Shown here: in pieces, positions 1,273 through 60,184 of the stretch
Layout of the letters: the number at the start of each line of letters is the position of its first letter
Position numbering within the stretch: the stretch's first letter is position 1
Assembly (NCBI GenBank): GCA_964016885.1
Contig: OZ024742.1
Span: 351,230,001-351,294,000, forward strand
Origin: Eledone cirrhosa
Taxonomy: Eukaryota
Direction of reading: 5' to 3'
DNA: 64,000 nucleotides
The notes under the pieces: model-generated
The model's input: only the letters and a program-made list of their open reading frames with translations
Told to the model about the DNA's origin: nothing
The model's database searches: none
Made by a program: the position numbers and the translations under genes

Positions 1273-3417
1273 TAAGACATCTACGGTAACATCTACTGTA
1301 ACATCTACGGTAACACCTACGGTAACATCTCCGGTAACATCTACGTGGTAACATCTACGTGGTAACATCTACGTGGTAACATCTACGTGGTAACATCTAC
1401 TGTAACATTTCCGGTAACATCTACGTGGTAACATCTACGTGGTAACATCTACGTGGTAACATCTACGGTAACATCTACGTGGTAACATCTACGTGGTAAC
1501 ATCTACGTGGTAACATCTACGTGGTAACATCTACGTGGTAACATCTACGTGGTAACATCTACGGTAACATCTACGGTAACATCTACGTGGTAACATCTAC
1601 GGTAACATCTACGGTAACATCTACGGTAACATATACGGTAACATCTACGGTAACATCTACGGTAACATCTACGGTAACATCTACTGTAACATCTACGGTA
1701 ACATCTACTGTAACATCTACGGTAACATCTACGGTAACATCTACGGTATCATCTACTGTAACATCTACGGTATCATCTACGGTATCATCTACGGTAACAT
1801 CTACTGTAACATCTACGGTAACATCTACGGTAACATCTACGGTATCATCTACTGTAACATCTACGGTATCATCTACGGTATCATCTACGGTAACATCTAC
1901 GGTAACATCGACGGTATCATCTACGGTAACATCTACGGTAACATCGACGTTATCATCTACGGTAACATCTACTGTAACATCTACGGTAACATCTACGGTA
2001 TCATCTACTGTAACATCTACGGTAACATCTACGGTAACATCTACGGTATCATCTACGGTAACATCTACGGTATCATCTACGGTAACATCTACGGTATCAT
2101 CTACTGTAACATCTACGGTAACATCTACGTGGTAACATCTACGGTAACATCTACGGTAACATCTACGGTAACATCTACGATAACATCTACTGTAACATCT
2201 ACGGTAACATCTACGTGGTAACATCTACTGTAACATCTACGGTAACATCTACGGTAACATCTACGGTAACATCTACTGTAACATCTACTGTAACATCTAC
2301 GGTAACATCTACGGTAACATCTACGGTAACATCTACGGTAACATCTACGGTATCATCTACGTGGTAACATCTACGGTAACATCTACGGTAACATCTACGA
2401 TAACATCTACTGTAACATCTACGGTAACATCTACGTGGTAACATATACTGTAACATCTACGGTAACATCTACTGTAACATCTACGGTAACATCTACGGTA
2501 ACATCTACGGTAACATCTACGGTATCATCTACGGTAACATCTACGGTAACATCTACGGTAACATCTACGGTAACATCTACGGTAACATCTACGGTAACAT
2601 CTACTGTAACATCTACGGTAACATCTACGGTATCATCTACTGTAACATCTACGGTAACATCTACGGTAACATCTACTGTAACATCTACTGTAACATCTAC
2701 GGTAACATCTACGGTATCATCTACTGTAACATCTACGGTATCATCTACGGTAACATCTACGGTAACATCTACTGTAACATCTACTGTAACATCTACGGTA
2801 ACATCTACGGTATCATCTACTGTAACATCTACGGTATCATCTACTGTAACATCTACGGTAACATCTACGGTATCATCTACTGTAACATCTACTGTAACAT
2901 CTACTGTAACATCTACGGTATCATCTACTGTAACATCTACGGTATCATCTACGGTAACATCTACGGTAACATCTACGGTAACATCTACGTGGTAACATCT
3001 ACGGTAACATCTACGGTAACATCTACCGTAACATCTACGGTAACATCTACGGTAACATCTACGGTAACATCTACTGTAACATCTACGGTAACATCTACGT
3101 GGTAACATCTACTGTAACATCTACGGTATCATCTACGGTATCATCTACTGTAACATCTACGGTAACATCTACGGTAACATCTACGGTAACATCTACGGTA
3201 TCATCTACGGTATCATCTACTGTAACATCTACTGTAACATCTACTGTAACATCTACGGTATCATCTACTGTAACATCTACGGTAACATCTACGGTAACAT
3301 CTACGGTAACATCTACGGTAACATCTACGGTAACATCTACTGTAACATCTACGGTAACATCTATGGTAACATCTACGGTAACATCTACGGTAACATCTAC
3401 GTGGTAACATCTACGTG
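1273..3417. repeat. 12-bp minisatellite (GGTAACATCTAC)n with TGTAAC, GGTATC and 14-bp GTGGTAACATCTAC variants
   Basis: Directly visible tandem array of about 2.1 kb. The VTST/VDVT/RRCY ORFs are translations of the repeat. Confidence 0.98.
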
Positions 3418-11119: not shown

Positions 11120-11178
11120 TTTCATTATACATATTTCAGGGATACCAAATTAAATATGGTATGCTTCATCAGACACAA
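11120..11178 (-). ncRNA. Minimal type I hammerhead motif (family A, inverted arm; slightly degenerate)
   Basis: Reverse complement reads CTGATGA...CCCT-GAAA-TATGTA-TA-ATGAAA. Confidence 0.55.
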
Positions 11179-11301: not shown

Positions 11302-11362
11302 TTTTGTCTGATGAAAGCATACCATAATTTAATTTGGTATCCCTGAAATATGTATAATGAAA
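11302..11362 (+). ncRNA. Minimal type I hammerhead motif (family A)
   Basis: TTTTGT-CTGATGA-stem II (ATACCA/TGGTAT)-GAAA-TATGTA-TA-ATGAAA. Stem I uses G.U pairs. Confidence 0.6.
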
Positions 11363-28720: not shown

Positions 28721-30040
28721 CCACAAAGAGCAACCCTTCAAAGTTAATTGACAATATATTGCCAAGTTCACTACAAGACAAAGCCAAAAATTATCTATCA
28801 AATCACATCTAGCAAGGAATATCGCAAAAAAGATTATGATGTCCAATAATGTCTACATATGTGTCTATATTTAATATATAAGTTACCTTGTATTTTTTCC
28901 TCAGCTCTTTCAGTATGAGGCCATTATACATGTCAGATGGGTAGCAGATAAGGCCGAACTTGAGAAAATGAATGTTGAAGCATCTTGTATAATGCATGAG
29001 TTGGAAATTGAGAACAGAACACAACCTTTCGTGCCCAGGAAACCGAAGATCAATATGAAGGACCACAAGAGGAATTTTGAGATTGACCTGCCAGTTAGAT
29101 TGATCGCACCTTCAAAATCGGACCTGGGCAAATTAAGCAAAAACATTCTTGACAGGGTGATACTGCAAATTAAGAACTTGGATTGTGTATCTAACCTGAG
29201 CTTGTGGAAGGGAACTGGAGAGGTTGTTGAGTGGTTTAGGCAAATTAAATATGACAATAATAATAGGTTTATTCAACTTGATATAGCTAACTATTATTCT
29301 TCTATTACCCCTAGTCTATTAAATAAGGCACTAAATTACGCATTCAAACATACGGACCTAACTAGCAAAGAAATGCATATTATATTATCGGCTAGGAAAA
29401 CTTTGATAGAATTTGATGACAAATTATGGACCAGAGCAGATAGAGATAGCAATTTTGACATAACTATGGGATCTTCCGACTCAGCTCAGATAACTGACCT
29501 TGTGGGCTTATTTTTAATCAATTCGCTACATAGGAAAATACCTGGTACTACCGGAGGTTTATATAGGGATGACATGCTTTTACTTATTAATAATAATAAC
29601 CCTGAACTAAATAGAAAATGTAAACAAATTACAAAATTTTTTAATTACTTTAACCTTAAAATAGAAATTGAGAACAACCATAGAATAGTCAATTTCCTAG
29701 ATATAACATTAAATCTCAACACATGTCTCCACTATCCTTTTCACAAGTTGAATGAAAACTTAAACTATGTCAACTTTAACTCTAACCACCCCAGATCTGT
29801 CAAAAACACTATAGTAAACTCAGTCCAAAAACGTATCTCTAGGATCTTTGTCACTTTTAAGTGACAAAGGTCTAGAGAATTCTGCAGACAGATTCAAAAT
29901 ACTGAGTGCATATCTTACTATTATCTTCGAACTTCTCTTAAACTAATCAACTATATGCCAAAGATCAACAGACACATTCACAAAAAAAACAAAATATATA
30001 TATATATGTATGTGTGTGTATGTATATATGTATGTGTGTG

Positions 30041-31003: not shown

Positions 31004-31054
31004 AGATTCCTGATGATTTCTAATGAATGAAACAGTTCTAGTCCTGTAGAATCT
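31004..31054 (+). ncRNA. Type I hammerhead ribozyme (family G)
   Basis: AGATTC-CTGATGA-T TTC TAAT GAA T-GAAA-CAG..CTG-TA-GAATCT. 6-bp stem I, GUA triplet, U.U at the base of stem II. Confidence 0.75.
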
Positions 31055-39720: not shown

Positions 39721-39781
39721 TATATATATATGTATGGTGACGAAACATAAGTCAATTGCATGAACTCATAATCCTTTATTT

Positions 39782-39837
39782 ACTGCTATATATATTTCGT
39801 TGATACCCATTGAATGGCTATGACGTCATCAGGCAGT
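39782..39837 (-). ncRNA. Minimal type I hammerhead motif
   Basis: Reverse complement reads ACTGC-CTGATGA-C GTCATAGCCAT TCA ATGGGTATCAAC-GAAA-TATATA-TA-GCAGT. Perfect stem I. Confidence 0.75.
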
Positions 39838-40084: not shown

Positions 40085-42955
40085 AGCAAAACCTACGTCT
40101 GAAATGGAAAAACATCATTGTGGTATGTCCTTCAAAAACATACACATTCAGGGTAAAAAAGAATACATTCTTGGTATGATACAAAGGACCAACGAATGTA
40201 TTCGGCGGATTAGATGGAGGGCCTTCCACTTCGATAGGAAAAGGATTACACAAACTTCCGACACCAACAACAATAAGTTTGGTTTCAAATCCTACAAAAA
40301 CCCACCCTCTAACCCTCTTTTGGATTCTTTCAAGCAGGACTTAATGAAAATGATAACCGGAATCAAATTTACAAACGGAAGGAAAAACGACTGCAACGAG
40401 ATATTAAAACTCTACTCGACAACCTAAGGAATACCAAAGGAATTATCATAAAGGCAGACAAAACATCGAATCTATACACCCTGGATGTAGAAACATATAA
40501 TAATGTTATACGTAAGGAATTACATAGGAAGTACATATAAACAAACGCAACTACACTAACCAACATTAATGACGCAGCATGTGATATTGTTAAGAAACTG
40601 AAAATCTAAGACAGAACGGTAAACCTATCTCCAGCTACACCGACTTTTAATCTGAAGGACCATAAGGATAACTTCGATACTAACCCTAACATTAGATTAA
40701 TATGTCCTTCAAAGTCCGATATAGGTAGAATCAGTAAGTACATATTAGATCGTATTATCCCCCAAGTTAAGGCTAAGGTAGATATTAAATTATGGGGTAA
40801 TACTCAACAGGCAATAAGATGGTTCAATAACATTAGTGACAAAAACAAATCTTCTTTTATTCAATTCGATATAGATGAATACTATTCCTCTATTTCACGC
40901 GAAACCCTGCATAAGGCCCTCTCATTCGCTAAGACTAACTCTGACCTCACAAACGAGGAAATTAATATTATACTTGAAGCTAGACGCACAGTAGTTCATT
41001 TTGAAAATAGTTATTGGGTCCGCAGAGATAAGCCCTCGGAATTTGACATTACGGTGGGTTCTAATGATTCGGGGGAGGTCACGGATCTGGTTGGGATCTA
41101 TATAGCCCACAGACTCCAGAGCGAATTTACGGACCTCCACGGCGGAATATACCGCGACGATACACTTCTATTAGTCAAGAATATGAACAAACAAAACCTA
41201 GAAAAGCGACGTAAAAACGTTAGGAAACTTTTCTTAGAACTAGGGCTTAATATTACCTTCGAACACAATCTTAAGGTGGTCAACTTATTGGATGTCACCT
41301 TCAACCATAATAACGGTAATATAGAGCCATTTCACAAACTTAATGAAAATCTCAAGTACGTTAATGTAAAATCGAACCATCCCCATTCCATTATTAAATA
41401 TATCCATAAAAATATATCCATAAGGATCTCCCGACTGTCGTCTAATTTGCAGACCTTCAACGAGCTTGCTGAATATTGTAATGACGCACTTAGAAAAGCT
41501 GGTTACTGCGAGAAAATAGAATATCTAGACGATAACCACATAAGTACTATGAATAAAACACATCTAAGTCGAACTAGTATTGCACCACACACACACATCA
41601 ATAGGCATACTGATAGGTGCAAACCAGCAAATAGAGTCAGACGTAGAGAGTACATATGGTATAACCCCGTGTACAATATTTCTATTAGCACTAAGATTAT
41701 CTCACAATTCTATACACTAATCAATAAACACTTTACAACTTCACATAAATACTATAACATCTTTAACTCGCGCACCACTAGGCTCTCGTACTCCACTGTA
41801 CCTAACATATAACAACTAATTAAAAAACTCAACTCAGCAATACTAAATAAGTACATCCCTAATGACTCAGCGCACCAGCATAGCAACATACAACGCACTA
41901 ACACGCAACTACAACCCCACCAAACTATCCAGGATACTACCGCAAAACATAAAAATAATTGTAACTGCACGAAACCAGGTACGTGCCCACTGAATAACCA
42001 GTGCCTAGCACGCAATATTGTCTACCGATGTACAATAAATTCCGGAACCAACAAATGGTATTACGTCGGATGTACCGCAACTTCTTTCAAAGCTCGCCTA
42101 TACCAACATCGATCTTCGATCAGGCACGAGAAAATGCGCTCCGTAACAACCCTCGCCGATAAAGCCTGGCAGCTCCGGAGGAACAATCAAGCATTCTACC
42201 TTGATTGACAAATGATTGCGATGCGCCTGCATATAAGCAAAATCAACGATTCTGTCAATTATGCAAATTGAGATATACTGCATTTTAACGTCGGTAAACA
42301 AACTTTTGAACAACAAAATTGAACGTTCACTGTACTGTAACCATCGTTTGAAAACGACTTTTTCTTTTTTTTAAATGCATGTAATGTTACCTTTTTACAC
42401 CACCGTTTGCAAATTTCTGTTGTATATGTTTATACACAGGATATGGCCTTCTATAATAATAGTACTAAACACTGTTTTCTGGACCCCTTTAGAAATAACC
42501 TGCTACTATAATAGCCCCAATAACTTGTCTGTAACTCTGTACCACTTTGACCCCTTTAACTAAATTTTGTCCAAACAAAACCACTAGAATAATTTACTTC
42601 CCCCTGCCAACCCTAACACGCCTCAATAAGTTAACTGCTGCCAAAACATTCTCTCCTTACAATCTCTACTAGTCTGACAGTCTTAAATCCTAGGACTCCC
42701 TCCCCCTTACTCACTTTCCTCTTCCCCTTCTCTTCCTACATTCTTCTTTCTCTTTTATCTAGTGTATAAAATATTTTCATATCTTCCAATACAAAGGTCT
42801 GACGACATGGTGTGTTTGCTTGCTGTGTACCTTCGGTTTATGATAATATTTTTATATTATTCAAATAGCGAGGTATAGGTAACCCATACACTATAGAAAC
42901 AATTGTTACCTAATAAATTCTTTATACCCGCATTTCCGTTTCATAAACTTCTTCT

Positions 42956-43043: not shown

Positions 43044-43345
<302 letters not shown>

Positions 43346-45721: not shown

Positions 45722-45780
45722 TTTTATCTGATGAAAACGCAGATATGAGGATATTTGTTTTTGAAATGAGCATAATAAAA
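45722..45780 (+). ncRNA. Minimal type I hammerhead ribozyme (family F)
   Basis: TTTTAT-CTGATGA-AAAcGCAGATAT GAGG ATATTTGTtTTT-GAAA-TGAGCA-TA-ATAAAA. The copy at 46584-46650 has palindromic TGCGCA but a damaged core. Confidence 0.75.
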
Positions 45781-46872: not shown

Positions 46873-46927
46873 TTTTATTATATATATTTCGGAGGTACTG
46901 TGCTGTGTACGTCCTCGTCAGGACGTT
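46873..46927 (-). ncRNA. Hammerhead motif (family E copy, stem I 5' strand lost)
   Basis: Reverse complement reads CTGACGA-GGAcGTAC..GTACcTCC-GAAA-TATATA-TA-ATAAAA. Confidence 0.65.
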
Positions 46928-46997: not shown

Positions 46998-47445
46998 AAA
47001 GTTATATTTAAATTGTTGGGTTACAACTAGTAAATATTTATAACTGATATAAAAGCACTCGACAAATATTTGGAGTATATTTACAATATCAAATAAATGG
47101 AAACTATATTTATAAAACCATATTTATTTCATTATATATATTTCAGGGATATCATATTAACAATATGCTATGCCTTCTTCAGACAAAATACAATATAAAC
47201 AGTTTTATAGATAAATAGATTCGACATACCGTAACAACATCGACTTGTATTTGAAAAGGTTGATCAACCTTTTCAAATACAAGTCGATGTTGTTACGGTA
47301 TGTCGAATCTATTTATCTATAAAACTGTTTATATTGTATTTTGTCTGAGGAAGGCATAGCATATTGTTAATATGATATCCCTGAAATATATATAATGAAA
47401 TAAATATGGTTTTATAAATATAGTTTCCATTTATTTGATATTGTA
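46997..47445. mobile_element. Family A fold-back module with near-perfect ~360-bp palindrome
   Basis: Symmetry centre AAGGTTGATCAACCTT (~47256-47271). Hammerheads at 47127-47188 (-, CTGAAGA) and 47339-47400 (+, CTGAGGA). Confidence 0.88.
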
Positions 47446-47469
47446 TATATATATATATATATGTAAATA

Positions 47470-49777: not shown

Positions 49778-49840
<63 letters not shown>

Positions 49841-49843
<3 letters not shown>

Positions 49844-50533
49844 CGTTCCTTTGTCAATGTTGAACAAACGAGCAACGATGGTTGCTAGACACTATGGCTT
49901 AATACGGGTTGTCTGTTTACAAACACACCGAGCATTATAATAAATGTTCGGTGAATCCATACGTACATATATATATATATATGTGTGCATGTATGTATAT
50001 ATATATATACATACTACTGTACGTATGTATACATATATGTATGCACGTGTACATACTAATATTTAAGTAACAGCCGTACTAAGAGTGGGAAATGGAATTT
50101 CGTTTCATTTTTTCCGTTTATCGTTTTCGGTGCACTCGGCCGATTAACCCACTCGATATGCAAATTGGGCTACTCAGCCTTTAATATGCATAAGGTAAGT
50201 ATATACGTTCAACAATCTGGCAGGAAGGTATACGTTGCTGACGATAGCTAATAAGCTTGAAACTAGTACAGCGTTCCTTTGTCAGTGTTAAACAAACCAG
50301 CAACGATGGTTGCTAGACACTACGGTTTAATACGGGATGTTTGTTTACAAACACAGCGAGCATTATAATAAATGTTCGGTGAATCCATACGTACATATAT
50401 ATATTTGTGCATGTATGTATATATATACATACTACTGTACGTGTGCATACATATATGTATGCACTTGTACATACTTATATTTAAGTAACAGCCGTACTAA
50501 GATTGGGAAATGGAATTTCGTTTCATATTTTCC

Positions 50534-50538
<5 letters not shown>
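49841..50538 (+). mobile_element. Retrozyme-like partial tandem (family J), ~428-nt unit
   Basis: 49842-50119 repeats at 50270-50538. A hammerhead sits at the junction, with (TA)n on both sides. Confidence 0.85.
50233..50273 (+). ncRNA. Minimal type I hammerhead ribozyme (family J)
   Basis: CGTTG-CTGACGA-T AGCT AATA AGCT T-GAAA-CTAG-TA-CAGCG. Palindromic stem III, GUA triplet. Confidence 0.8.
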
Positions 50539-50574
<36 letters not shown>

Positions 50575-50577
<3 letters not shown>

Positions 50578-51054
50578 AAAATGTCAAGAACAAAGCGGTC
50601 GGTTGTACAATAGGGTTTATTTAAAGTATTAACAATTGTTTCATTGGTCCGGTGTGTCTAAAATCGCTGATCGTTAGAAGCCACGTCACTCGATTTTAAT
50701 TACAATCGACACCTGACTAAATCATTATAATACTTATATCTGTACATGATACCGTGCGTGTATATATATATATATATATCCTAATTTTGGCTGGACTGGC
50801 AATCACTCTGTATAATCAGCTTCTGATTATTACTAGAATTCTTTAAGAATCCAACTTCTATAATTTTCAGCAGAAGCAGGGGAATGTGTTGTCCTGATGA
50901 ATACCAACCAGCGTGAAACAGACTGTTAGCCTCTCTCCTTCTTTGACCGAAAATAAGTAATTGACATAGTCACTACTTTAAAACTGATAGCGTATGCTCT
51001 TCTAAATGTTTTTAATAAAACATACAGTTTATTGCCAAATATACTATACATACA

Positions 51055-53199: not shown

Positions 53200-54800
53200 A
53201 TATAAGGGGGATCTTGCATATGCAAACTATGCCTGAACGAGACCCTCGAGATACTAAGAGGTGGGAGCGGCCTGATAAGCCTCAGAACCCACTTCTTCGG
53301 TACATGCAGACACCTTAGAGCCGGGACCTTCCTCAATATATATGGACAGTAGCAACACAAGAAGATGTGAACACCCTATCAAGCTATAGGGACTTCTCCA
53401 GAACATGTAGACACCTCTCGGCCAGGCCTCCCTCAAGCTATATGGGCAGTCACAACACCCTAGGTTGAGAACTCCCCTCAAGCCATAGGGAACAACCCAG
53501 GCTGAGCAGACACCATGATAGCCTAGAGGTTGAATCGGACACAGCCATTATAATTTGGCCAACACCTATATAACACAAACACATTTTAATTTACTTGATT
53601 TCTGATTCTCAATTTCCAATTCTAAATCTTAATTTCTCTTTATTAATTTGTTATTTGTTTTCTGTTCTGTTCTCTTCACTGTATCACCTTATATTTATTT
53701 TTAAGTCGAGATTGATTATAACACAAACACATTTTGTTTGATTATCTTATTCTTTTATTATTTTAACGTCTTCTCCTCATACCAATCTATCCAACATATT
53801 TCTGACCTTGAGATTGGTTATAACACACACACACTTTATCCTACTTTATTTGAATCTTCATTTTATTTTTCACATCTCCATATTCATTTTCATTACTTTT
53901 TCACCAATCTTTCATTTATTCTTTATTCTTTATTCTCTATTTATTATTTCATTCTGTTTTCTTCATTTATTGCCTTATACTTCTTCATATACATGGAATA
54001 CCCCCCCCCCCCCCAACACCACCACGGGAGATGGTGGCAGGTGGGATGAAGAAAAAACACACACAGATACTTCTAAATTGTCAGCAGCAGCAAGACATAA
54101 GCTGACCACTACACCAACAACACTACCGAAATAATAGTAGAGGTCAAATGTACTTAACAATAGCAAACACAAACACTACAGGGAGCCTCACACCAGAAAC
54201 ACATTTTATAGACTTTTGACTGAGGAATGTTCTCAAAACTGACCAATGGGAAGTTTGACATTTTTTTGTTATTTTGTTCTTTTACCACCTTGTTCCTTCT
54301 ACCACTTTATCAATTGTTTAAGCTAACTCCAACAATAACAACACTACCCACACAAGAATTGAGGTCAGATGTACCTAACAATAACAAGAACAACAACTAC
54401 AGATTGGCTTACCTCAGAATGAACGTCTATAGACTTTTGAATGAGGAATGTTCTAACAAGGCTCTTTGACACTGAAATTCGTTTGTTTGAATTCATATGA
54501 TTCCAGTTCCGCAGAGAAATAACAACCCGACCAGGAACTGGGCATACCAGAGTATTGACAAAATTATACACCTCAACAACATATGTACTTGTCTATACCA
54601 CACTAATTCGGACTGCCTGAAGAGGTCACAGCCAAAGATGACTGTCACCGAAATATATATAGCAAATTTTAAACATTTGACTTTTTATTTTACTTTATTT
54701 TACATTACTCCGGAGTAACCAAACCAACCTGCGCACTTCGTCGAGTGCTTCGGCCTGCATACTGTGATGTTGGTATACAACCAACATATACTCAAAATAT
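53200..54800 (+). mobile_element. Non-coding ~1.6-kb element with internal repeats, ending in a hammerhead/pLTR-like tail
   Basis: TA-flanked. Internal duplications include CTCAAGCTATAGG units, TATAACACAAACACATTTT (x2 plus a variant), and TAGACTTTTGA.TGAGGAATGTTCT (x2). Hammerhead at 54614. Confidence 0.55.
54614..54664 (+). ncRNA. Minimal type I hammerhead ribozyme, canonical core
   Basis: TGC-CTGAAGA-GGTcACAG..CTGTcACC-GAAA-TATATA-TA-GCA, with a G10.1-C11.1 pair. Confidence 0.8.
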
Positions 54801-56401: not shown

Positions 56402-59400
56402 AGTTATACTTGGGGAGGGTCATATTTGTGTAATATTGCCAGAATTAATAACAGAACACACTCACTGTTTGGTTGGTTTTCGCTTGTCGCTGTCTTTTAT
56501 ATCGGTAATCTAACTTACTCAGTCCTCAATGTTGCCATTGACTGACCGATGGTAGAAATAACAGTAACACCAACAACAATAACAGTGAAGTAAACAACAA
56601 TACACATAGCAATCATAACAATAATAATAATGCTAATTATAGAAACAACAACAACCACCCTGATAACAATAATAGCAACACACACAACTATGACGATAGA
56701 TATCATGACAACCCCTTAGAGAAACTATTTTTCAACCCAGCTGACAAAACATATAAAATGGGTAATATCTATCCTACGAGGTTACCCTCTAATAAAAGAG
56801 TTTGCATACCACAACAAATAGATGAGACAGAGGCACAGTTCACCATAGCTAGAAATAAGATTAGACAAATAGTAGACAGCTATACTAAGAGACAGAGAAG
56901 ACCAGAGGCCCAACAACTTGGGAGGAAACCTGTAGAAGGCTTGGTTAGCCTCAAGCAGAATACAAGGGATGGTGAGGTAGTGTGTCTACCCGCGGATAAG
57001 TCTGGTAGGATGTCAATAGATAGCATGCCGAACTACATGGAGGCTATGCAACCCCACATCACCAACACGAGCGAAGTTGCACAACAAACACACGATGGGA
57101 GAGAAAAAATCCTCAACGCTCACATGATGATGTGGACTGACATCCTAAAGCCAAGCAGACGCACTGCCAACAACATCCAGGCGTCTAACAATGGCATACC
57201 ACCCTTGTATGAGCTCCGCAAAGACCACAAGAGAGTCGACGACCCGACAACGGGACCACCAATAAGACCCGTATGCGGAGCTAATATAGCTAGCAACTAC
57301 AGGACCTCCTACTTCCTCTCAATGGTTATACGCCCCATAATCAAAATGTCCCCAGATGTATGTGACAGTACAGAGGACCTCCTCAGCAGAATCAGTGAGT
57401 GCAACAAAAACAGGAGCCTATTCAACTGCATAATAGGCAACATGGATGTGGTGTCACTGTACCCATCCATTAACATTGATTTTGCTGTGAAAAGATGTGT
57501 GGAGATGATCATTGAGAGTGAGGTGGAGTTCTGCGACGTCGACACAGACGAACTGGGCCTCCTACTTAGACTTACCTACGACACTGAATACCTAGACAGC
57601 CATGACCTTAGATGTTTCTGCCCTAGTAGACCTATAAGAGGTAGACCCCCCACCATAACCTCAATGGCAAAAAAAACTCCCCTGGGAAGGTGGATTGGGT
57701 GGACCAAAGCTATACGGACCCCCCAAAACAATGATCAGGTAAGAAAAATGGTCGCACATGCAATAGGGGCTAGTATGAAAACTACCCTAAGGGCCACATA
57801 TTTAAGTTCAACGAGAAAATCTACCCCCAAAATGAGGGAGCAGCCATCAGCGTCAGCATAGCTGGTGATGTTGCCAACCTTTTCATGGTATGGTGGGAAA
57901 GGAGACTTAAAGATCTCCTTAATGAAAGCTCCATAGACCTCATCATGTACTCTCGTTATGTAGACGATATCAATATAGTTATAAGAACACCCCCACTAGA
58001 GAGCACTAACAGTTTGATTTATAACGTAGCACGATGGAAAGCATCCAGCAGATAGCTAATTCCATACACCAGAGTATAACTGTAACTATCGACTTCCCTT
58101 CCAAACACCCTAACAATAGACTACCTGTATTAGACACAGAACTCTGCATTAACACTATAGACGAGAGAGCACAAAATCTCCACTCACACTATGCTAAACC
58201 CATGGCCTCCAAATACTTGATACTCAAAAACTCAGCAATGTCCAGTAGTGCCAAGTTTAATATTTTGATCGCAGATTTGGTACGAGTGATGAAGAATGTG
58301 TCCCGCATGTGCGACCCAAGAGAAATGGAAAGACACATCCAACACTTCATCAACCGCATGCAGTTCTCTGGCTACAACCAAAGAGACAGAGTCAGAGTAT
58401 ACGAAGGACCCATGGAAAAGTATAAGACCCTCATAGAACTGGTCATGAAAGGAATTTGCCCATTATACAGGAGCAAATCATGGAATAGCTGAGATAGAGC
58501 TAGACATAAGATAGGGAAAACCACCTCATGGTACGACAACCAGAGATACCAGAGTCAGAGTTTCATTTTTGTAGACGCCACCCCTGGACGGAAATTTGCT
58601 AACCAGTGTAGAAAGGTCCTGAGAAAGACCCACTTAAAAATAAAGGTGGTAGAAAAGCCAGGAACCACCATAAAATCCCTGATCAGCAAAACCTACCCTT
58701 TTAAGAAAACCGTCTGTAACAATAGGAAATGTATCATATGTAAGGTGAACCCCCGGATAAACTGTAAAACTAGAAACGTAGTCTATAGCATTAGATGTAC
58801 AGAGGGTACTTGCAGAAACATGACAACAACATACATAGGTGAGACAGCTCGTAGCATAGGTGAAAGGATAGACCAACACTGGGGGGAACTAAAAGGACGA
58901 ATAAATGTGTCAGTACTATACGAACATGCTAGACAACAAGATGACGGTAACATAGACAACATAGAAATTAGAATAATATCTAAACATAGAAATGACCCAG
59001 CAGATAGGCAAATCAGAGAGGCCAGTGAAATAGAAATTAGAAGACCAAAGCTAAACAGAAAGAATGAATGGAATAACAACAACACCCAAACAAACAACAC
59101 TGACCTAAGAGAAGTATAAATAAGTAAATAAAATGAGATAAATAAATAAATAAATACATACACAAGCACAATAACAACAAGCACATAAACACACACTAGT
59201 CACCCATCACACAGCAAACATAACAATATACACACACGCAAACGCATGCGCAAAGAAGACGAAATAAAATAAACAAACAAGCAAATAAATAAATAAATAT
59301 ATAGACAGACTGAATAAAAATGGCGTAGACTTACAACACAACAGGAGGAAAATATAACACCACTGACGATGTTGCAGATGTGCAACGAAAGATTTATGAT

Positions 59401-59655
59401 AAACTATATATATGTGTTTGTGTCTATATTGCATCTGTATTATTTTTGACCGTCGGTCAGTCAATGGCAACATTGAGGACCGAGTAAGTTAGATTACCGA
59501 TATAAAAGACAGCGAGAAGCGAAAACCACCCAAACAGTGAGTGTGTTCTGTTATATCTGGCAATATTACACAAATATGACCCTCCCCAAGTATAACAGTA
59601 TTTGTTTCGACACACGATTTCATATAAAAAACCTCGCAAAACTAATTCATCGCCG
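56402..59655 (+). mobile_element. Near full-length Penelope-like element (RT + GIY-YIG) with inverted 5' pLTR and 3' pLTR (family D)
   Basis: PADKSGR, LYELRKDHK, RPVCGA, NMDVVSLYPSI, RYVDDI (~57954), LPVLDTEL, HYAKPMAS, CNNRKCIIC..NCKTRNVVYSIRC..YIGETARSIGERIDQH..RQIREA..LNRKNEW. 56402-56553 is an inverted copy of 59450-59597. Frameshifts near 57790 and 58030, stop at 58490. Confidence 0.95.
59357..59400 (+). ncRNA. Hammerhead motif in the PLE pLTR (family D; stems I and III degenerate)
   Basis: CTGACGA-T-GTTGCA GATG TGCAAC-GAAA, with an extra U after A9. Confidence 0.55.
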
Positions 59656-59780
<125 letters not shown>

Positions 59781-60067: not shown

Positions 60068-60124
60068 AAGAGCTTCTACAGAACTGGAACTCTTTCATTC
60101 GTGAGAAATCATCAGGAAGCTCTT
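60068..60124 (-). ncRNA. Type I hammerhead motif (family G relative)
   Basis: Reverse complement reads AAGAGCTTC-CTGATGA-T TTC TCAC GAA T-GAAA-GAG..CTG-TA-GAAGCTCTT. The 9-bp stem I differs in sequence from 31004 but still pairs. Confidence 0.7.
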
Positions 60125-60184
60125 ACTTAGGATTCTATATTCATGATGATTCTTCCTGAATTTCGTTTCATTTCTTCCGTATGT

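What the first reader, a model, noticed from the sequence alone, without database searches (positions are those of the whole stretch)
49841..50538. 428-nt partial tandem whose first copy starts at the predicted hammerhead cleavage site
Seen: the hammerhead at 50233-50273 would cut after GUA (50268/50269). The upstream copy begins right after (TA)n at the base equivalent to 50269-50270. The insert is therefore one cleavage-to-cleavage monomer plus about 270 nt, with no ORF. Inference: this is what reverse transcription of a self-cleaved linear multimer or a circular RNA would leave, as in a non-LTR retrozyme.
Basis: partly seen in the sequence, partly recalled or inferred. Interest (0 to 1): 0.8.

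Follow-up and report, generated by a model that had tools for sequence, protein, structure and literature searches.

The report
Ribozyme-bearing parasite of Penelope retroelements
This is one copy of a young, very abundant non-coding repeat that carries a predicted self-cutting RNA and was likely pasted into TA microsatellites by a Penelope-like jumping gene; it is a known kind of element, and its start at the predicted cut site is likely chance.

Summary
A 428-nt unit plus a 271-nt partial copy lies between two (TA)n runs, with no ORF and a type I hammerhead predicted to cut after 50268. Copy 1 starts one base past the equivalent site.

The unit belongs to a young family (8,704 exact hits of one 24-mer), so it is a non-LTR retrozyme. 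The proposed link between its start and the cut fails. Breaks at the cut are no more frequent than at two control positions (0.74% against 1.07% and 1.11%), and 140 of 142 sampled unit heads run straight through the ribozyme.

What is fixed is the other end. 185 of 237 arms stop at one of two sites about 60 nt apart, mostly running into (TA)n. In 47 of 50 head-to-head insertions, one arm uses each site. This is the Penelope 'tail' signature, also seen in two protein-coding Penelope-like families of this genome.

Likely mechanism: a Penelope-type reverse transcriptase starts inside an RNA whose ribozyme junction is intact, either a circle or an uncut multimer. Cleavage, circles and the partner are untested. 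The scan noted similar elements in other genomes, not this sequence.

The parts
49781..49841 (.). 5' (TA)n run, part of the microsatellite target
49842..50268 (+). Unit copy 1 (family unit about 420-424 nt, here 428 through AT expansion); 5'-truncated 1 nt past the predicted cut
49951..50070 (+). Long AU-rich imperfect hairpin (predicted); the family's 'short' 3' end lies in its 3' strand (about 50061 in copy 1, about 50479 in copy 2)
   Evidence: prediction; ends
50158..50165 (+). ATGCAAAT octamer-like motif, kept in 6 of 8 aligned relatives including the 65%-identical family B; role untested, motif name recalled
50226..50278 (+). Type I hammerhead: stem I 50232-50237 with 50269-50274 (extension 50226-50228 with 50276-50278), core CUGACGA 50238-50244, stem II 50245-50258 with U.U at its base, GAAA 50259-50262, minimal palindromic stem III ACUAGU 50262-50267; predicted cut 50268/50269
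50269..50539 (+). Partial copy 2, from the cut site to the family's 'long' fixed 3' end
50480..50539 (+). About 60-nt 'tail' between the two fixed 3' ends (the two inferred reverse-transcription start sites)
50537..50574 (.). 3' (TA)n run; a target-site duplication cannot be read because both flanks are (TA)n

Best explanation
This is a 5'-truncated copy of a high-copy, non-coding tandem repeat with a predicted hammerhead ribozyme (a non-LTR retrozyme), likely copied into a TA microsatellite by the reverse transcriptase of a Penelope-like element (PLE). Inferred steps: (1) tandem copies elsewhere are transcribed; (2) the weak-stem-III hammerheads cut mainly as pairs, and the monomer is ligated to a circle, or the transcript stays uncut; (3) a PLE endonuclease nicks (TA)n and its RT starts at one of two internal sites about 60 nt apart, one per target strand in inverted insertions; (4) the RT reads through the intact ribozyme junction, often more than once, and stops at a random place. 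Here it stopped one base from the cut by chance. With a single ribozyme, this locus cannot itself release a monomer. Shown: family size, fixed 3' ends, scattered 5' ends, read-through of the junction, paired short and long ends, covarying ribozyme stems. Not shown: cleavage, circles, expression, partner.
For: Family: 8,704 exact hits of the 24-mer after the cut; top 40 scored copies 97-98% identical; median 2.0% from each column's commonest letter in 443 pieces, a sample biased to young copies. 3' ends: 185 of 237 arm ends in 137 loci fall at two sites (89 short, 96 long, 52 other). Of 76 head-to-head pairs, 50 have both ends classed and 47 are one short plus one long (p about 2e-11; two of the 47 are duplicates within L103). 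5' ends are scattered with no excess at the cut. [quoted passage not shown] PMC11167929 shows in vitro that a PLE RT starts at two internal sites that bound the tail and does not need ribozyme cleavage. PMC8557442 lists 5' truncation, partial tandems, inverted 5' copies, one-sided tails and (TA)n targets as PLE features. Ribozyme: 5 pairs with changes on both sides in 12 family rows, 0-1 of 500 shuffles as high, slid controls far lower. Young insertions have several substitution-identical units on both inverted arms (L158 6+5, L159 4+3).
Against: No RNA holder was listed, so expression, cutting and circles are untested. No sequence similarity between the unit and the non-coding parts of the two PLE families examined. 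Some long arrays grew after insertion by block duplication (L138, L156, L163), so array length alone does not prove rolling-circle copying. Inverted arms share only 31 of 439 rare variants (control 0.5%). In Xenopus only 1 of 9 predicted retrozyme dimers cut in vitro. The covariation rests on few related rows, several changes coming from one divergent sequence.
Confidence: 0.85

Rival explanations
1. One reading: the template is a self-cleaved linear RNA, and this insertion's 5' end is the RNA's cut end (run-off of the RT).
For: Copy 1 starts 1 nt past the cut. True breaks within a few bases of the cut exist elsewhere: 19 of 30 fetched pattern hits.
Against: The break rate at the cut is lower than at two controls; still 73 of 8,124 at control 1 after dropping 14 hits of one duplicated indel variant seen. 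None of 142 unit heads in the position-ordered sample starts at the cut; the 2 without a ribozyme upstream start about 3 nt further in, at one duplicated inversion junction. The base that a run-off should keep (C) is missing here.
Confidence: 0.07
2. The unit is only the terminal repeat (pLTR) of an undetected autonomous PLE, and the copies are its truncated ends rather than an independent element.
For: The architecture equals that of PLE ends. In Xenopus 24 of 57 retrozyme families match known elements, 21 of the 22 matched being PLEs.
Against: Arrays of up to about 10 head-to-tail units have no ORF between them. No recurrent non-unit 5' flank pointing to an ORF among 81 solo arms. Related older subfamilies (about 80-86% identity) and family B (about 65%, 470 nt) are also pure tandem units.
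Confidence: 0.06
3. A minisatellite spread by DNA-level duplication or recombination, with the hammerhead as a passenger.
For: Block duplications do occur: ABAB arrays and ABC-ABC in L163, and duplicated loci on C18.
Against: Thousands of dispersed hits with unrelated flanks in the loci read, two fixed 3' ends, polar 5' truncation and short/long pairing at inversions are marks of retrotransposition.
Confidence: 0.02

Closest known systems
Animal non-LTR retrozymes (Cervera and de la Pena 2020, PMC7229834; Li, Clavereau and Pollet 2026, bioRxiv 10.64898/2026.07.22.740005)
   Same: Non-coding tandem units of a few hundred bases, GC under 50%, one type I hammerhead per unit, strongly self-paired predicted fold, thousands of copies, co-occurring PLEs. 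The U.U at the base of helix II resembles axolotl HHR_Amex2, and the palindromic minimal helix III resembles the amphibian motifs that cut as dimers.
   Different: Unit (420-428 nt) slightly longer than the 170-400 nt reported for invertebrates. Circles and cleavage are shown there and untested here. In the parts read, those papers do not map insertion ends; here two fixed 3' ends and short/long pairing tie the element to PLE machinery. This locus has one ribozyme, so it fails the 2026 preprint's 'active' criterion of two complete units.
Penelope-like elements with C-terminal GIY-YIG endonuclease (Neptune, Hydra, Penelope/Poseidon; PMC8557442, PMC11167929)
   Same: 5' truncation, partial tandems, inverted 5' copies, one-sided tail, (TA)n targets, hammerhead in the terminal repeat.
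   Different: No ORF; tail about 60 nt rather than 30-40; no sequence similarity to the two PLE families examined here.
Non-autonomous Chlamys elements such as MRC1 (PMC8557442)
   Same: Non-autonomous PLE passengers forming multicopy head-to-tail insertions.
   Different: Those resemble their partners at the 3' end and belong to a clade mostly without hammerheads.
Newt satellite 2 (seen only as cited in PMC2220036 and PMC7229834)
   Same: Tandem hammerhead repeat; a reported internal snRNA-type promoter would fit the conserved octamer-like motif here.
   Different: No convincing match to this genome's U2 promoter; the original paper was not held.

Membership tests
Non-LTR retrozyme | Tandem non-coding repeats of about 150-450 bp, GC under 50%, no LTR/PBS/PPT layout | tested here: met
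   Units of 419-430 nt in arrays of up to about 10; no ORF; surrounding 2-kb bins 34-35% GC
Non-LTR retrozyme | Type I hammerhead in each unit | tested here: met
   Core nearly invariant over about 270-280 copies; stems covary; no Rfam hit at gathering score
Non-LTR retrozyme | Dispersed high copy number | tested here: met
   8,704, 8,124 and 7,679 exact hits of three 24-mers
Non-LTR retrozyme | Self-cleavage in vitro | not testable with these tools
   Needs a transcription and cleavage assay
Non-LTR retrozyme | Expressed as linear and circular RNA | tested here: inconclusive
   No RNA holder listed; laid runs are contigs of unknown kind
Non-LTR retrozyme | Two consecutive complete ribozymes at the locus ('active' criterion of the 2026 preprint) | tested here: not met
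   This locus has one ribozyme; many other loci of the family have two or more
PLE-mobilised insertion | Fixed 3' ends with a one-sided tail, random 5' truncation, inverted 5' copies | tested here: met
   185 of 237 ends at two sites; 47 of 50 classed inverted pairs discordant; 5' ends scattered
PLE-mobilised insertion | Sequence kinship with the terminal repeat of an autonomous PLE | tested here: inconclusive
   None with the 2 families examined; other PLE families of the genome were not examined
Autonomous PLE | RT plus GIY-YIG ORF | tested here: not met
   No ORF in the insert or between units

The most novel reading that the evidence does not exclude
The retrozyme's RNA circle is the template of a PLE reverse transcriptase that primes both strands of one (TA)n target at two different internal sites. 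The tail length then works as a fingerprint of the partner: 59-61 nt here, 59 nt in the genome's Neptune-type family (open frames up to about 1,300 aa), about 110 nt in its Hydra-like family. That would name a candidate enzyme for retrozyme mobilisation without any shared sequence, and make rolling-circle retrotransposition testable in vitro.
Probability: 0.3. Interest if true: 0.6.

Novelty: new member of a known kind. Interest (0 to 1): 0.36.

Why it matters
The locus itself is one dead copy among thousands. The family matters modestly. Which enzyme moves animal retrozymes, and from which RNA, has been proposed from co-occurrence and terminal-repeat phylogeny. Here the insertion ends give direct genomic support for PLE machinery: two internal start sites, one per arm in 47 of 50 inversions. 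They also show that the template's ribozyme junction is intact. A young family beside intact PLE ORFs offers a ready RNA and enzyme pair to test circle against uncut multimer.

Tried and rejected
1. Start at the cut as a family trait: rejected. The five arms with 5' position 1-2 still have ribozyme remnants upstream and are not true starts.

2. Alternating A/B arrays as proof of a circular dimer template: not upheld. In L138 a variant shared by nearly all units of the long arm is absent from the inverted arm, and the outer units differ; the terminal unit of L156 is neither A nor B; L163 shows an ABC-ABC duplication. Later block duplication fits better; L100 stays ambiguous.

3. Paired hits 5.5 kb apart on C18 as terminal repeats of an autonomous partner: they are duplicated loci with no long ORF.

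4. Partner by sequence: nothing beyond chance-level matches to the Hydra-like family (30 loci) or the Neptune-type family (25+3 loci), apart from separate retrozyme insertions in L243 and L244. A 22-nt match at window 60159-60180 is unexplained and may be chance.

5. snRNA-type promoter: the best matches to U2 upstream DNA lie in AT-rich sequence and are absent in family B.

6. Expression: no RNA holder listed; this is no evidence either way. Laying four runs added nothing decisive.

7. A first motif-based pairing of ends was noisy, because the short motif matched plain AT-rich DNA. It was replaced by alignment-based pairing.

8. Rfam: no hit at gathering score; the E-value mode was not run.

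9. Target-site duplication: unreadable in (TA)n.

Full report
OBSERVATION. The window is G000:C3:351230001-351294000 in a 3.0-Gb genome. Its repeats look like an octopus genome to me; that is recalled, not tested. Between (TA)n 49781-49841 and (TA)n 50537-50574 lie a unit 49842-50268 and a partial copy 50269-50539, 428 nt apart and 91% alike. There is no ORF of 120 aa or more. The junction holds a type I hammerhead with a predicted cut after GUA at 50268. Copy 1 begins at the base equal to 50270, one past the cut. The unit folds much better than shuffles (z -6.2). The ribozyme stretch alone does not, and Rfam gives no hit at gathering score.

FAMILY. A 259-nt query gave 1,610 candidates, the 40 scored at 97-100%. 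Three 24-mers from different parts of the unit have 8,704, 8,124 and 7,679 exact hits. In 443 pieces from 137 loci the median distance from each column's commonest letter is 2.0% (the sampling favours young copies). Older subfamilies at about 80-86% and a family B at about 65% (470-nt unit) keep the layout. Across 12 rows the ribozyme core is almost invariant and 5 pairs change on both sides. 0-1 of 500 shuffles reach this, and slid controls pair 28-47% against 93%. The rows are related and several changes come from family B alone, so this supports the fold and not activity. Helix III is the palindrome ACUAGU and helix II opens with U.U. Amphibian motifs with such features cut weakly alone and well as dimers (PMC7229834; PMC7761336), so pairing is inferred here.

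TEST OF THE START-AT-CUT IDEA. I counted copies of each 24-mer whose upstream bases differ at three G/C positions, which catches breaks within a 4-nt window plus small indels. Cut site: 64 of 8,704 (0.74%). Control 58 nt downstream: 87 of 8,124 (1.07%), or 73 after dropping 14 hits of one duplicated variant. Control about 48 nt upstream: 85 of 7,679 (1.11%). The odds ratio of cut against controls is 0.67, p 0.006. Of 30 fetched cut-site hits, 11 were small indels inside an intact ribozyme and 19 true breaks; control hits were not fetched. Detection rates can differ a little by position, so I claim no excess rather than real depletion. In a position-ordered sample from contig C1, 5' ends spread from 1 to 396 (78 loci, 140 arms). 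140 of 142 unit heads had the ribozyme directly upstream (75 loci after removing overlaps). A start within 2 nt of the cut has about 1.2% chance per arm. The window's copy is one of the dozens expected.

WHAT IS FIXED. In 137 loci (164 fetched, 27 overlapping or duplicate dropped), 185 of 237 arm ends fall at two sites, 89 short and 96 long, mostly running into (TA)n; 52 end elsewhere. Of 76 head-to-head pairs, 50 have both ends classed: 47 short plus long, 3 long plus long, none short plus short (p about 2e-11; two of the 47 are duplicates in L103). The sites are 59-61 nt apart (overlapping loci not removed there). The window's copy uses the long end. PMC8557442 (passages) lists 5' truncation, partial tandems, inverted 5' copies, a tail on one end and (TA)n targets as PLE features. 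PMC11167929 (parts 1-2 of 4) shows that a purified PLE protein nicks AT-rich DNA, extends both strands, and starts at two internal RNA sites that bound the tail. It works without ribozyme cleavage, unprocessed RNA being the main substrate.

POSSIBLE PARTNERS. The window holds remnants of two PLE families. One has intact 778-784-aa frames elsewhere; I call it Hydra-like from recalled motifs, Pfam giving only a weak GIY-YIG hit on the window piece and none on L208. The other has frames up to about 1,300 aa with a weak RT hit and a Cys linker before GIY-YIG, which I read as Neptune-type (motif as described in PMC8557442). Both end at two main sites into (TA)n, about 110 nt and 59 nt apart, and pair short with long in inversions (L228; L261). 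Neither shares sequence with the unit. The 59-nt match is a lead only: 2 families were examined out of an unknown number.

CIRCLE OR UNCUT MULTIMER. Read-through of the junction shows the template was not a cut monomer. Young insertions have many substitution-identical units on both inverted arms (L158 6+5; L159 4+3, sharing two variants not seen in the other arrays), which favours multimers made at insertion. As a circle the unit is predicted to be highly paired. Against over-reading: ABAB and ABC-ABC arrays show later duplication, arms share only 31 of 439 rare variants (control 0.5%), uncut read-through transcripts would leave the same ends, and no RNA data were available. I put circle against uncut multimer at about even odds.

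KNOWN OR NEW. The element fits animal non-LTR retrozymes (PMC7229834, parts 2-4 of 6). These are proposed to be non-autonomous PLE derivatives (bioRxiv 10.64898/2026.07.22.740005, parts 1-3 of 5, where 1 of 9 tested dimers cut). Searches listed no paper on a cephalopod retrozyme or on tail pairing in retrozymes. The library is incomplete, and I did not open supplements, which may list such families. The scan's notes hold no look-alike of this sequence and nothing for this genome. They do hold similar PLE-type non-coding tandems in other genomes, which I did not check.

VERDICT. Observation right; class right; the striking detail is chance. New member of a known kind, interest 0.36. The useful by-product is the clean short/long end pairing and a candidate partner.

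Noticed in passing
window 11128-11172(-), 11308-11356(+), 31010-31043(+), 39781-39832(-), 43169-43202(-), 45728-45777(+), 46876-46921(-), 50894-50928(+), 54617-54661(+), 59363-59401(+), 60081-60115(-): Further hammerhead-core motifs of other families, several followed within about 30-90 nt by (TA)n; the core pattern hits 27 times against 5.6 expected, some hits overlapping. Likely PLE terminal repeats.
   Followed up: partly
window 40610-42208 and 28875-29864; L206, L208: Young Hydra-like PLE family with intact 778-784-aa frames, tandem 3.0-kb units and two 3' ends about 110 nt apart. Its ribozyme region starts CUGAUGA but did not fit my core pattern.
   Followed up: partly
window 56542-59657; L260, L261: Young Neptune-type PLE family, open frames up to about 1,300 aa with an Asn-rich N-terminal stretch, two main 3' ends 59 nt apart and a minor one between.
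   Followed up: partly
L175/L176 (G000:C1:163574409-163577874), also L244: Family B: a 470-nt relative at about 65% identity with a G-C-closed stem II and the same layout of ends.
   Followed up: partly
window 50158-50165 and about 50186-50193: Octamer-like motif conserved across subfamilies, and a second variant on the other strand about 25 nt downstream; possible internal promoter element.
   Followed up: partly
L138, L156, L100, L163: Arrays with two- or three-unit periodicity (A/B, A/B/C), best explained by block duplication after insertion.
   Followed up: yes
window 47076-47451: Near-perfect 188-nt palindrome with no spacer (99%), probably an inverted PLE end.
   Followed up: no
window 1277-3415: 12-bp tandem array of 175 copies giving long open low-complexity frames on both strands.
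   Followed up: no
G000:C3:307.35-307.45 Mb: Tandem array of U2 snRNA genes with a 2.2-kb period.
   Followed up: no
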